From Escherichia coli (GTDB lineage Bacteria; Pseudomonadota; Gammaproteobacteria; Enterobacterales; Enterobacteriaceae), in assembly GCF_044324785.1 (NCBI RefSeq), contig NZ_CP172127.1: 64,000 bases of DNA; one strand, given 5' to 3'. Shown here one piece after another: positions 30,801 through 33,800 of this stretch (the first letter of the stretch is position 1; the number at the start of each line of letters is the position of its first letter). Made by a program: the position numbers.

Positions 30801-33800
30801 GCGGATACCATGATTATCAAACGCACTCCTCAAGCCGCGTCGCCTCTGGCTTCGTGGCTTTCTTATCTGGAAAACCTGCACAGTAAAACTATCGATCTCG
30901 GCCTTGAGCGCGTGAGCCAGGTCGCGGTGCGTCTTGGCGTTCTGAAACCAGCGCCATTTGTGTTTACTGTTGCGGGTACGAATGGCAAAGGCACCACCTG
31001 CCGTACGCTGGAGTCGATTCTGATGGCGGCAGGGTACAGAGTGGGCGTCTACAGTTCGCCGCATCTGGTGCGTTATACCGAGCGCGTACGTGTGCAGGGC
31101 CAGGAATTGCCGGAATCGGCCCACACCGCCTCTTTTGCGGAGATTGAATCGGCACGCGGTGATATTTCCCTGACCTATTTCGAGTACGGTACGCTGTCGG
31201 CGTTGTGGCTGTTCAAACAGGCACAACTTGACGTGGTGATTCTGGAAGTAGGGCTGGGCGGTCGTCTGGACGCAACCAATATTGTCGATGCCGATGTCGC
31301 GGTAGTAACCAGCATTGCGCTGGATCATACCGACTGGCTGGGGCCAGATCGCGAAAGTATTGGTCGCGAGAAAGCAGGCATCTTCCGCAGCGAAAAACCG
31401 GCAATTGTCGGTGAGCCGGAAATGCCTTCTACCATTGCTGATGTGGCGCAGGAAAAAGGTGCACTGTTACAACGTCGGGGCGTTGAGTGGAACTATTCCG
31501 TCACCGATCATGACTGGACGTTTAGCGATGCTCACGGCACGCTGGAAAATCTGCCGTTGCCGCTTGTCCCGCAACCGAATGCCGCAACGGCGCTGGCGGC
31601 ACTGCGTGCCAGCGGGCTGGAGGTCAGTGAAAATGCCATTCGCGACGGGATTGCCAGCGCAATTTTGCCGGGACGTTTCCAGATTGTGAGCGAGTCGCCA
31701 CGCGTTATTTTTGATGTCGCGCATAATCCACATGCGGCGGAATATCTCACCGGGCGTATGAAAGCGCTACCGAAAAACGGGCGCGTGCTGGCGGTTATCG
31801 GTATGCTACATGATAAAGATATTGCCGGAACTCTGGCCTGGTTGAAAAGCGTGGTTGATGACTGGTATTGTGCGCCACTGGAAGGGCCGCGCGGTGCCAC
31901 GGCAGCACAACTGCTTGAGCATTTGGGTAACGGCAAATCATTTGATAGCGTGGCGCAGGCATGGGATGCCGCAATGGCGGACGCTAAAGCGGAAGATACC
32001 GTGCTGGTGTGTGGTTCGTTCCACACGGTCGCACATGTCATGGAAGTGATTGACGCGAGGAGAAGCGGTGGCAAGTAAGTTTCAGAATCGGTTAGTGGGC
32101 ACGATCGTGCTGGTGGCGCTGGGGGTGATTGTACTTCCAGGGCTGCTGGATGGGCAGAAAAAACATTATCAGGATGAGTTCGCGGCTATCCCGCTGGTGC
32201 CAAAAGCGGGCGATCGCGATGAACCTGATATGATGCCAGCCGCCACCCAGGCGTTGCCGACGCAGCCGCCGGAAGGCGCAGCGGAAGAGGTGCGGGCAGG
32301 TGATGCCGCAGCACCGTCGCTCGATCCGGCCACTATTGCAGCCAATAACACCGAGTTTGAACCGGAACCTGCACCGGTCGCCCCACCGAAGCCGAAACCG
32401 GTGGAGCCGCCTAAACCAAAGGTTGAAGCACCACCTGCGCCGAAGCCAGAACCGAAGCCGGTCGTGGAAGAAAAAGCTGCACCGACGGGTAAAGCCTATG
32501 TTGTGCAACTGGGTGCGCTGAAAAATGCCGATAAAGTGAATGAGATTGTCGGTAAGCTGCGCGGTGCCGGTTATCGGGTTTATACGTCGCCATCCACGCC
32601 AGTGCAGGGTAAAATTACCCGTATTCTGGTTGGGCCGGATGCCTCGAAAGATAAGCTGAAAGGTTCGCTGGGTGAGTTGAAGCAACTTTCTGGCTTAAGT
32701 GGCGTGGTAATGGGCTATACGCCGAATTAATACGGTCTTGCCTGATGCGACGCTGGCGCGTCTTATCAGGCCTGCGCAGGGGTAGAGCCGTAGGTCGGAT
32801 AAGGCGTTCATGCCGCATCCGACACGCATTGCCCGATGCCGCAAAGGCATAAAAAGTCGATGGCGTTGAATATTTTTTCAGCGCCATTTTTATTGATGCG
32901 CGGGAAGGAAATCCCTACGCAAACGTTTTCTTTTTCTGTTAGAATGCGCCCCGAACAGGATGACAGGGCGTAAAATCGTGGGACACATATGGTCTGGATT
33001 GATTACGCCATAATCGCGGTGATTGCTTTTTCCTCTCTGGTTAGCCTGATCCGCGGCTTTGTTCGTGAAGCGTTATCACTGGTGACATGGGGTTGTGCTT
33101 TCTTTGTTGCCAGTCATTACTACACTTACCTGTCAGTCTGGTTTACGGGCTTTGAAGACGAACTGGTTCGAAATGGGATTGCCATCGCGGTACTGTTTAT
33201 CGCTACCCTGATCGTTGGTGCTATCGTGAACTTCGTGATAGGCCAGCTGGTGGAGAAAACGGGGTTGTCAGGCACCGATCGGGTGCTGGGCGTCTGTTTC
33301 GGTGCGTTGCGCGGTGTGTTGATTGTTGCTGCCATTCTCTTCTTTCTCGACTCCTTTACCGGGGTGTCGAAAAGCGAAGACTGGAGCAAATCACAGCTGA
33401 TCCCGCAGTTCAGTTTTATCATCAGATGGTTTTTTGATTATCTGCAAAGCTCGTCAAGTTTCTTGCCCAGAGCGTAAGTGCTCTGAGATGTGGCTTAACG
33501 AGGAAAAAGACGTATGTGCGGTATTGTCGGTATCGCCGGTGTTATGCCGGTTAACCAGTCGATTTATGATGCCTTAACGGTGCTTCAGCATCGCGGTCAG
33601 GATGCCGCCGGCATCATCACCATAGATGCCAATAACTGCTTCCGTTTGCGTAAAGCGAACGGGCTGGTGAGCGATGTATTTGAAGCTCGCCATATGCAGC
33701 GTTTGCAGGGCAATATGGGCATTGGTCATGTGCGTTACCCTACGGCTGGCAGCTCCAGCGCCTCTGAAGCGCAGCCGTTTTACGTTAACTCTCCGTATGG

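What the first reader, a model, noticed from the sequence alone, without database searches (positions are those of the whole stretch)
32740..32893. BIME-like REP pair plus terminator hairpin directly upstream of the PurR-regulated cvpA promoter
Two REP palindromes (32740-32772 and 32790-32823) and a terminator-like hairpin (32862-32893) are packed between dedD and the PUR box at 32917-32932. This is a compact insulator-like arrangement between the folC-dedD unit and the cvpA-purF-ubiX unit. Similar REPs are found after yfcO, yfcL, fabB and yfbS in this window.
Basis: seen in the sequence. Interest (0 to 1): 0.15.

Follow-up and report, generated by a model that had tools for sequence, protein, structure and literature searches.

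The report
REP pair and terminator before cvpA

Summary

- **REP pair.** REP1 (32739-32775, + strand) is a Y-type REP. REP2 (32790-32824, inverted) is a Z2-type REP. A 14-nt linker separates their tails, and REP1 starts 9 nt after the dedD stop codon.
- **Repeat unit.** Together they form exactly one 91-bp BIME-2 unit. Other E. coli genomes carry 0, 1, 2, 3, 4, 5 or 7 tandem units here, with unchanged flanks.
- **Terminator.** The hairpin plus T-tract (32859-32894) is a real intrinsic terminator. Published long-read data for K-12 place accD-folC-dedD 3' ends at the base equal to window 32892. About a third of those reads continue, and some cover cvpA.
- **Conservation.** A hairpin plus T-run sits 20-38 nt before the PUR box in 86 of 95 Enterobacterales species. 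E. coli-type REPs occur only in Escherichia and some Citrobacter.
- **Promoter.** The PUR box (32917-32932) equals the ChIP-defined PurR site. The mapped cvpA transcription start equals window 32953.

The conserved terminator does the separating between the two transcription units, and only partly. The REP pair is a dispensable, copy-variable passenger in the dedD 3'UTR. It probably has minor RNA-level effects, which are untested. Everything here is already known, so interest is low.

The parts
32068..32730 (+). dedD coding sequence (last gene of the accD-folC-dedD transcript); stop codon TAA at 32728-32730
   Evidence: ORF list. The CDS maps one-to-one onto K-12 dedD b2314, 2431022-2431684. 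The start coordinate is inferred from the 663-bp K-12 CDS length.
32739..32775 (+). REP1, a Y-type REP (iREP orientation on the + strand). Its foot tetranucleotide is mutated (CTGC here, CTAC in K-12). The stem begins 9 nt after the dedD stop codon.
   Evidence: Inverted repeat I2. RNA hairpin dG -21.4 kcal/mol. Its reverse complement matches the published Y consensus at 26/27 conserved positions and has the same 37-nt length.
32776..32789 (.). Short tail-to-tail linker (S-type, 14 nt) between the two REPs
   Evidence: Read directly from the sequence. The same linker recurs in every tandem unit of multi-copy strains. BIME-2 is defined by a short linker (PMC3333891).
32790..32824 (-). REP2, a Z2-type REP with intact GTAG (32790-32793 as read on the + strand), inverted relative to REP1
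   Evidence: Inverted repeat I3. RNA hairpin dG -18.6 kcal/mol. It matches the published Z2 consensus at 25/27 conserved positions and has the same 35-nt length.
32738..32828 (.). One 91-bp BIME-2 repeat unit (Y-S-Z2-s), bounded by the 5-nt direct repeat TTGCC (32738-32742 and 32829-33). This is the segment that is absent or tandemly multiplied in other E. coli genomes.
   Evidence: Spacer lengths across strains are 167+91n bp. Parsed arrays hold 0, 1, 2, 3, 4, 5 or 7 units.
32831..32858 (+). Ancestral spacer block TGCCCGATGCCGCAAAGGCATAAAAAG with a weak 5-bp hairpin (32836-32850). It resembles a REP head but is shared with genera that lack the BIME.
   Evidence: Fold dG -7.1 kcal/mol, z -1.3, which is not significant. 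It is present in the zero-copy E. coli allele L009. Related blocks occur in Citrobacter and Klebsiella.
32859..32894 (+). Intrinsic terminator of the accD-folC-dedD transcript: 12-bp stem, 6-nt loop, then TTTTTATT
   Evidence: Terminator scan. dG -18.0 kcal/mol, z -5.8. The hairpin persists in the fold of the whole 3'UTR. The K-12 3' end at 2430860 equals window 32892. A hairpin plus T-run occupies the same position in 86 of 95 species.
32917..32932 (.). PurR operator (PUR box) ACGCAAACGTTTTCTT of the cvpA-purF-ubiX promoter
   Evidence: It is the reverse complement of the ChIP-chip PurR site AAGAAAACGTTTGCGT listed for cvpA-purF-ubiX (PMC3159470). The stretch is identical in K-12. The 14-nt core ACGCAAACGTTTTC was the search pattern, so its presence in those loci is not independent evidence of conservation. 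What the scan shows is that 95 Enterobacterales loci hold this box between dedD and cvpA.
32937..32953 (+). cvpA promoter core: TGt + TAGAAT (-10 at 32940-32945) and the transcription start at 32953
   Evidence: The K-12 transcription start at 2430799 from SMRT-Cappable-seq equals window 32953. The -10 and extended -10 assignment is my inference from the sequence.
32989..33477 (+). cvpA coding sequence, first gene of the PurR-regulated cvpA-purF-ubiX unit
   Evidence: ORF list and annotation of the K-12 and other E. coli orthologues.

Best explanation
This is the junction between two co-oriented transcription units.

**Shown.** Transcripts that start at the accD promoter run through folC and dedD and across the REP pair. 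Many of them end at a conserved intrinsic terminator, with the RNA 3' end at window 32892. Sixty-one bases further on, at 32953, the PurR-repressed cvpA-purF-ubiX promoter starts its own transcript. Its operator lies 22 nt past the T-tract. The terminator is partial, so some accD transcripts continue into cvpA. The two REPs are one 91-bp Y-S-Z2 unit of a BIME-2 element lodged in the dedD 3'UTR, between the stop codon and the terminator. This unit is gained, lost and tandemly amplified (0 to 7 copies) within E. coli without touching its flanks.

**Inferred.** The REP unit is not what separates the two units. As transcribed RNA hairpins the REPs probably act as back-up barriers to 3'-to-5' exonucleases. 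Because REP1 starts 9 nt after the stop codon, it may also slightly damp dedD translation termination. PurR bound at the operator may additionally block read-through polymerases when purines are plentiful.
For: **Locus identity**
- The stretch is 97.9% identical to K-12 over 9.7 kb. The spacer has the same 258-bp length. Its four substitutions all lie in the REP1 foot, the linker and the REP2 loop.

**REP type and arrangement**
- REP1 and REP2 match the published Y and Z2 consensus at 26/27 and 25/27 conserved positions.
- They are inverted, tail to tail, with a 14-nt linker.
- BIME-2 is defined as Y plus Z2 with a short linker, in tandem copies whose number varies between strains (PMC3333891).

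**Copy variation**
- Spacers measure 167+91n bp. Parsed arrays hold 0 (L009), 1, 2 (L004), 3 (L005, L010), 4 (L006), 5 (L011) and 7 (L007) units.
- In an evenly spaced sample of 59 chromosomes, about 64% have one unit, 31% several and 3% none.

**Terminator**
- It has a 12-bp stem with dG -18.0 kcal/mol, z -5.8, followed by a T-tract.
- The hairpin persists in the fold of the whole 3'UTR.
- SMRT-Cappable-seq, rich medium, lists a transcript 2430860-2433972 covering b2316|b2315|b2314. 14 reads end at the site, 10 pass and 9 end within 50 bp.
- A hairpin plus T-run lies 20-38 nt before the PUR box in 86/95 species. The figure is 13% in shuffles and 12% or 0% at offset control sites. There are 70 distinct hairpin sequences.

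**Promoter**
- The PurR ChIP site has the same sequence.
- The transcription start at 2430799 equals window 32953, with 868 reads in M9 and 190 in rich medium.

**REP distribution**
- E. coli-type REPs occur only in Escherichia and some Citrobacter. Trabulsiella and Klebsiella have none in this slot.
Against: - Adams et al. 2021 Term-seq lists no 3' end anywhere in K-12 2430700-2431099 in the stored supplement.
- The M9 sheet of the SMRT-Cappable-seq data calls no 3' end at 2430860.
- The experimental support is therefore one condition of one study, with 14 reads.
- All transcript data are from K-12, not the strain of this window, although the terminator-to-cvpA stretch is identical.
- No experiment consulted addresses RNA stabilisation, dedD translation or a PurR roadblock at this locus.
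- The 64% frequency of the one-unit allele could reflect weak selection for keeping a REP pair.
Confidence: 0.85

Rival explanations
1. The REP pair is a DNA-level topological insulator. Gyrase bound to the BIME-2 unit absorbs the positive supercoils pushed ahead of polymerases transcribing accD-folC-dedD. This would shield the supercoiling-sensitive cvpA promoter. It is the strongest form of the reader's 'insulator' idea.
For: The literature states that BIME-2 elements strongly bind DNA gyrase and that REP/BIME elements can act as topological insulators (PMC2817692; PMC3333891). The element sits between two co-oriented units, about 180 bp upstream of a promoter.
Against: Some E. coli genomes have zero units and others seven, with identical promoter flanks. 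Most Enterobacterales with the same dedD-PUR box-cvpA layout have no E. coli-type REP here. No gyrase binding data for this locus were found.
Confidence: 0.12
2. REP1 down-regulates dedD through translation. A stable REP hairpin within 15 nt of a stop codon stalls the terminating ribosome and triggers mRNA cleavage and trans-translation.
For: The REP1 stem starts 9 nt after the TAA. It folds at -21.4 kcal/mol. The 15-nt rule of Liang, Rudd and Deutscher 2015 is summarised in PMC12306157. The 9-nt distance is the same in every E. coli allele that carries the unit.
Against: The original paper and its gene list could not be read, and dedD is not mentioned in the RepRanger text or supplements. Zero-unit strains exist. 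The effect was shown for only a few genes.
Confidence: 0.25
3. The REP hairpins mainly stabilise the accD-folC-dedD mRNA by blocking 3'-to-5' exonucleases once the terminator hairpin is breached, or on read-through and processed transcripts.
For: Two strong hairpins lie inside the mapped 3'UTR, upstream of the 3' end. REP-stabiliser activity is an established property of transcribed REPs (references listed in PMC12306157; PMC3333891).
Against: The terminator hairpin already gives a protected 3' end. No REP-proximal 3' ends are reported in the datasets read, although reads in repeats map poorly. Copy number is not conserved.
Confidence: 0.3
4. The BIME itself ends transcription (Rho-dependent attenuation at REPs), and the downstream hairpin is secondary.
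For: REPs are reported to facilitate Rho-dependent termination, and BIMEs to attenuate transcription (Espeli et al. 2001, cited in PMC2817692, and PMC3333891).
Against: The mapped 3' end lies in the T-tract of the downstream hairpin, not in the REPs. The hairpin, not the BIME, is conserved across species.
Confidence: 0.07
5. The palindromes are chance features of a GC-rich spacer.
For: None beyond the general frequency of short inverted repeats.
Against: The tail motif occurs 4 times against 0.07 expected. The elements match published consensus sequences almost perfectly over their full length. The sequence matches a median of 9 places per E. coli genome.
Confidence: 0.01

Closest known systems
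BIME-2 (bacterial interspersed mosaic element, type 2) of E. coli
   Same: It has a Y and a Z2 REP in inverse orientation, a short tail-to-tail linker, and a unit that is tandemly amplified to different copy numbers in different strains. It is extragenic, at the 3' end of a transcription unit.
   Different: This window holds a single unit. The Y REP has lost its GTAG (now GCAG), which the literature says is essential for TnpA-REP recognition (PMC8266576). This copy is therefore probably no longer a substrate.
REP325 / naRNA4 (Rfam RF02564), the HU-binding RNA from a six-unit Y-l-Z2 array
   Same: It uses the same Y and Z2 palindromes, transcribed from an upstream gene's promoter (PMC4550694).
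   Different: The matches are only sub-threshold (38.1 and 32.3 bits, against a gathering score of 59.5). The unit here is joined tail to tail (S linker), not through the l linker. No nucleoid role was tested.
BIME-1 / RIP-RIB elements (Y-L-Z1 with an IHF site)
   Same: A pair of inverted REPs lying after a gene.
   Different: BIME-1 has a long conserved linker and is single copy. The yfcO-smrB element in this same window (14543-14644, 35-nt AT-rich linker, shorter Z) fits that type, whereas the dedD element does not.
Canonical Rho-independent terminators
   Same: A GC-rich 12-bp stem, a short loop and a U-tract. The in vivo 3' end lies in the U-tract, and read-through is partial, as at most E. 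coli terminators.
   Different: Nothing unusual. The only notable point is its conserved position about 22-30 nt upstream of the PUR box across Enterobacterales.
PurR operator of purF (cvpA-purF-ubiX promoter)
   Same: The 16-bp sequence is identical to the ChIP-defined site and overlaps the promoter.
   Different: None.

Membership tests
REP / palindromic unit, Y and Z2 types | Imperfect palindrome of about 30-40 nt that can form a stem-loop with an internal mismatch | tested here: met
   Arm complementarity is 86% and 83%. The hairpins fold at -21.4 and -18.6 kcal/mol with internal mismatches.
REP / palindromic unit, Y and Z2 types | Conserved GTAG tetranucleotide at the foot of the palindrome | tested here: not met
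   The feature fails for one of the two REPs. REP1 reads GCAG in this window (CTGC at 32772-32775), where K-12 and most other alleles have GTAG. REP2 keeps GTAG at 32790-32793. REP1 is a point-mutated copy, still recognisable by the rest of its sequence.
REP / palindromic unit, Y and Z2 types | Sequence match to the published Y and Z2 consensus | tested here: met
   26/27 (Y) and 25/27 (Z2) conserved positions match, with equal lengths. Ungapped cross-matches are only 17-18 positions (consensus from PMC2817692; comparison).
REP / palindromic unit, Y and Z2 types | Many dispersed extragenic copies in the genome | tested here: met
   There are five REP loci in this 64-kb window, all intergenic. 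The query matches a median of 9 places per E. coli genome at megablast level.
BIME-2 | Y and Z2 in inverse orientation, separated by a short (S) linker rather than the long IHF-binding L linker | tested here: met
   The tail-to-tail linker is 14 nt. The definition comes from PMC3333891. The canonical S-motif sequence itself could not be checked, because figures are not held.
BIME-2 | Tandem repetition, with copy number that varies between strains at one locus | tested here: met
   0, 1, 2, 3, 4, 5 and 7 units of 91 bp occur at this locus in different E. coli genomes. E. albertii has 2 units. The window itself has one.
BIME-2 | Binding and cleavage by DNA gyrase | not testable with these tools
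   Known only from the literature on other BIME-2 loci (Espeli and Boccard 1997, cited).
Intrinsic (Rho-independent) terminator | GC-rich stem-loop directly followed by a U-tract | tested here: met
   12 pairs including 5 G-C, a 6-nt loop and TTTTTATT. dG -18.0 kcal/mol, z -5.8.
Intrinsic (Rho-independent) terminator | RNA 3' ends in the U-tract in vivo | tested here: met
   Published K-12 data place the 3' end at 2430860, which equals window 32892 (14 reads, rich medium). The sequence is identical in the window. No such end is called in the M9 sheet or in the Term-seq lists.
Intrinsic (Rho-independent) terminator | Independence from Rho | not tested
   No bicyclomycin or rho-mutant data for this site were found.
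PurR operator (PUR box) | 16-bp operator matching the PurR site, with PurR occupancy | tested here: met
   The sequence is identical to the ChIP-chip site listed for cvpA-purF-ubiX (PMC3159470). Occupancy itself comes from the literature.
REPs that regulate translation (within 15 nt of a stop codon) | REP stem begins no more than 15 nt after the stop codon of the upstream gene | tested here: met
   9 nt (32731-32739) lie between the TAA and the first paired base. The rule is quoted in PMC12306157.
REPs that regulate translation (within 15 nt of a stop codon) | Ribosome stalling and tmRNA-dependent reduction of the upstream protein | not testable with these tools
   No data for dedD were found, and the source paper is not held.
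naRNA4 (Rfam RF02564) | Score at or above the Rfam gathering threshold | tested here: not met
   38.1 and 32.3 bits, against 59.5.

The most novel reading that the evidence does not exclude
The terminator and the PurR operator, held about 22-30 nt apart across Enterobacterales, might work as a two-stage barrier. The leaky intrinsic terminator would stop most accD-folC-dedD polymerases. PurR bound just downstream would block the rest when purines are plentiful, so upstream read-through could not bypass purine repression. The strain-specific number of BIME-2 units (0-7) in front of the terminator would then tune how many polymerases and how much dedD message reach it.
Probability: 0.12. Interest if true: 0.35.

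Novelty: already known. Interest (0 to 1): 0.1.

Why it matters
It matters little beyond correct annotation. The locus is a clean textbook case of three known things side by side. The first is a mobile BIME-2 repeat that uses a 3'UTR as a safe landing place. The second is a conserved but leaky intrinsic terminator. The third is a PurR-controlled promoter. The practical lesson for genome scanning is that REP pairs next to terminators should not be read as insulators by default. Here comparative and long-read data assign the separating role to the terminator. The REP unit is dispensable and copy-variable.

Tried and rejected
- **Covariation in the terminator.** A MAFFT alignment of the 92 terminator-to-PUR stretches followed by RNAalifold recovered only a trivial 3-bp helix in the PUR box. 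The stems of different genera were misaligned. I replaced this with a positional test against shuffles and offset sites. That test shows conservation of a hairpin plus T-run but is not a formal covariation statistic.
- **Term-seq.** Adams et al. 2021 list no 3' end in the spacer. The lists are thresholded and use uniquely mapped reads, so I treat this as uninformative.
- **Supplements not held or silent.** Dar and Sorek 2018 and the 3'-UTR valve paper have no supplements held. The TERMITe supplements do not mention the genes.
- **Sources on REPs near stop codons.** Liang, Rudd and Deutscher 2015 could not be read. The supplements of Ton-Hoang 2012 and RepRanger do not list this locus.
- **Literature search.** A search for papers naming dedD, cvpA, purF and folC together found nothing.
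- **K-12 annotation.** The RefSeq table available here carries no REP features, so the official REP number for this locus could not be confirmed.
- **Rejected idea.** TGCCCGATGCCGC (32831-) looked like a decayed third REP. Related blocks occur at the same place in Citrobacter and Klebsiella, which lack the BIME. The fold is also not significant.
- **Rfam.** At gathering thresholds nothing is found in the region.
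Full report
**Locus.** The window is an E. coli-type chromosome read on the reverse strand of K-12 coordinates. Over 9.7 kb around the finding it is 97.9% identical to MG1655. The best match among 5,426 complete E. coli genomes is 99.3%. The finding lies in the 258-bp spacer between dedD (stop codon TAA at 32728-32730) and cvpA (ATG at 32989). Annotation of K-12 and other strains gives the gene order accD-folC-dedD | cvpA-purF-ubiX, all on one strand. The spacer has the same length as in K-12 and four substitutions. All four fall in the REP1 foot, the inter-REP linker and the REP2 loop. From 32812 to the cvpA start the two sequences are identical. For this stretch, K-12 coordinate = 2463752 minus window position.

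**Observation.**
- REP1 has arms at 32740-32753 and 32758-32771. Its RNA hairpin folds at -21.4 kcal/mol.
- REP2 has arms at 32794-32805 and 32812-32823, preceded by GTAG. Its RNA hairpin folds at -18.6 kcal/mol.
- The terminator-like site has a 12-bp stem (32859-32888) and a 6-nt loop, then TTTTTATT. It folds at -18.0 kcal/mol, z -5.8. It survives as a separate hairpin when the whole 3'UTR is folded.
- The PUR box ACGCAAACGTTTTCTT is at 32917-32932.
- This is not chance. The REP tail motif occurs 4 times in the window, against 0.07 expected.
- The REPs claimed after yfcO, yfcL, fabB and yfbS are all found, each within a few to 22 nt of the gene end.

**What the REP pair is.** I compared both elements with the Y and Z2 consensus sequences published for E. 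coli K-12 (PMC2817692).
- The reverse complement of REP1 matches Y at 26 of 27 conserved positions over the same 37 nt. The only miss is GTAG changed to GCAG.
- REP2 matches Z2 at 25 of 27 conserved positions over the same 35 nt.
- The two are inverted, tail to tail, and 14 nt apart.

The literature defines BIME-2 as Y plus Z2 with a short linker, in tandem copies whose number differs between strains. BIME-1 is single copy with a long IHF-binding linker (PMC3333891).

The population data fit BIME-2 exactly. In an evenly spaced sample of the 5,430 matching records, the locus spans 601 bp plus multiples of 91 bp, or less. Parsing nine representative loci shows spacers of 167+91n bp holding these numbers of Y-S-Z2 units:
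- 0 units: L009
- 1 unit: the window and K-12
- 2 units: L004
- 3 units: L005 and O157:H7 L010
- 4 units: L006
- 5 units: L011
- 7 units: L007

The unit is bounded by a 5-nt direct repeat, TTGCC. The zero-unit allele reads ACGGTCTTGCCCGATGCC. In the sample, roughly 64% of chromosomes have one unit, 31% several and 3% none. One strain (L008) has Y and Z fused into a single long palindrome.

The GCAG change in this window's REP1 should remove recognition by the REP-associated transposase, which tolerates no GTAG mutation (PMC8266576). That step is inference.

**What the terminator is.** I scanned one genome per species for the PUR box plus -10 pattern.
- It yielded 95 Enterobacterales loci with dedD upstream and cvpA downstream.
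- In 86 of the 95, a hairpin followed by a T-run lies 20-38 nt upstream of the PUR box.
- The same test is positive in 13% of shuffled upstream segments, in 12% of sites offset into cvpA and in 0% of sites offset into dedD/folC.
- There are 70 different hairpin sequences, and the stems differ by genus. Examples are GGCGTTGA/TCAGCGCC in Enterobacteriaceae, GCGGCGAT/ATCGCCGC in Yersinia, Proteus and Photorhabdus, and GGGCGAGG/TCATCGCCC in Pantoea. Structure and position are therefore kept while sequence changes.
- A formal covariation test failed for alignment reasons.

Experimental support comes from published long-read data for K-12 (SMRT-Cappable-seq, PMC6131387).
- The rich-medium table lists a transcript 2430860-2433972 on the reverse strand covering b2316|b2315|b2314, that is accD-folC-dedD.
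- 14 reads end at the site, 9 end within 50 bp downstream and 10 pass through, with a median extension of 487 nt.
- 2430860 equals window 32892, inside the T-tract.
- The same resource lists the accD operon as extended to accD-folC-dedD-cvpA.

The terminator is therefore real but leaky, like most E. coli terminators in that study. Two caveats apply. The M9 table has no call at this site, and a Term-seq study lists no 3' end in the spacer.

**The promoter.**
- The PUR box is the reverse complement of the PurR ChIP-chip site given for cvpA-purF-ubiX (PMC3159470).
- The long-read data place the cvpA-purF transcription start at 2430799, which equals window 32953. That is 7 nt after TAGAAT (32940-32945).
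- 868 reads start there in minimal medium and 190 in rich medium, as expected for purine repression.
- The TG two bases before the -10 suggests an extended -10 promoter. This is my inference.
- The dedD transcript therefore ends 61 nt before the cvpA transcript begins.

**Where the REPs come from.** Among the 95 species, E. coli-type REPs in this slot occur only in Escherichia and some Citrobacter.
- E. coli has one unit and E. albertii two.
- Citrobacter has a single Z-like REP or a Y-plus-Z pair.
- Trabulsiella and Klebsiella oxytoca have a short spacer with no REP.
- Several Enterobacter, Pluralibacter and Pseudocitrobacter genomes carry unrelated palindromic repeats (CCCTCTCCC...GGGAGAGGG) in the same slot. 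Pseudocitrobacter faecalis has six tandem copies.

The stretch between the dedD stop codon and the terminator is thus a recurrent landing place for whatever repeat family a lineage carries. The terminator, the block in front of it (TGCCCGA...AGGCATAAAA) and the promoter stay fixed.

**How it most likely works.**
- *Shown.* The REP pair is transcribed as part of the dedD 3'UTR, because the mapped 3' end lies downstream of it. The terminator ends a majority of these transcripts. Some continue into cvpA. The REP unit is dispensable and variable.
- *Inferred.* The separating function belongs to the terminator. The REP hairpins probably serve as secondary exonuclease barriers. Because REP1 starts 9 nt after the stop codon, the locus falls in the class for which translational damping has been reported (rule quoted in PMC12306157). 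PurR bound 22 nt beyond the T-tract may also obstruct read-through polymerases. From memory, PurR acts as a roadblock at purB (He and Zalkin 1992). I did not check this.
- *Rival.* A gyrase-based topological insulator role for the BIME has literature precedent. It is not supported by the comparative pattern and was not tested.

**Comparison with known systems and verdict.** The element meets the tested defining features of Y and Z2 REPs, apart from the mutated GTAG of REP1. It also meets those of BIME-2, of an intrinsic terminator and of the purF PurR operator. It does not reach the Rfam threshold for naRNA4, the RNA of the REP325 BIME-2 array (38.1 bits against 59.5). Nothing here is new. REPs and BIMEs, their copy-number polymorphism, the purF operator and the two transcript ends are all in the literature. 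The 'insulator' label is only partly right. Interest is low.

Noticed in passing
L002 (NZ_CM177971.1) 1274-2552; corresponds to window 32772-32775: In strains B25FEP and 23CRST029 a 1,277-bp IS621 (IS110 family) element sits in the foot of REP1, at ATCAGGCCT|AC, with CT present on both sides. IS621 is known to target REPs. The window's own site reads ATCAGGCCTGC.
   Followed up: partly
window 14521-14659: The yfcO-smrB spacer holds a Y REP, a 35-nt AT-rich linker and a shorter Z REP. This is a BIME-1-like element, unlike the dedD one. The K-12 spacer at this place is only 70 bp, against 139 bp here, so this locus is also polymorphic.
   Followed up: partly
L066 (Pseudocitrobacter faecalis), L100, L020, L021, L070: dedD-to-terminator spacer: Unrelated palindromic repeats (CCCTCTCCC...GGGAGAGGG, with GATCGAGCA-type linkers) fill the same slot. 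Pseudocitrobacter has about six tandem copies (548-nt spacer). The slot is a recurrent landing place for lineage-specific repeats.
   Followed up: partly
window 32900-32916: A block GGGAAGGAAATCCCT lies immediately 5' of the PUR box. A recognisable form of it (GGAAAWNCC) is kept from Escherichia to Yersinia, Serratia and Pantoea. Its function was not determined. It may be an upstream promoter element.
   Followed up: no
window 33146 (K-12 2430606): A published Term-seq study lists a strong 3' end 157 nt inside the cvpA ORF in two growth conditions, scored as not Rho-dependent. There is no obvious hairpin in the sequence shown.
   Followed up: no
L008 (NZ_AP024687.1) spacer: Strain FUJ80154 has the Y and Z REPs fused into one long palindrome. 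The REP feet and linker are deleted and the spacer is 23 bp shorter.
   Followed up: no
window about 23300-24600 (fabB-mnmC region): The PurR ChIP-chip paper also lists a weak PurR site, ACCAAAGCGATGGCAT, for fabB-mnmC. That site lies within this window's span.
   Followed up: no
window 63536-63578: This is the only Rfam match above threshold in the window: nuoG RNA (RF01748, 50.3 bits).
   Followed up: no
window 28000-38000: The window is not identical to any complete E. coli genome at this locus (best 99.3%). It is 97.9% identical to K-12 and 93% identical to the genome labelled E. coli SCPM-O-B-8794. It probably comes from a strain or lineage outside the collection.
   Followed up: no
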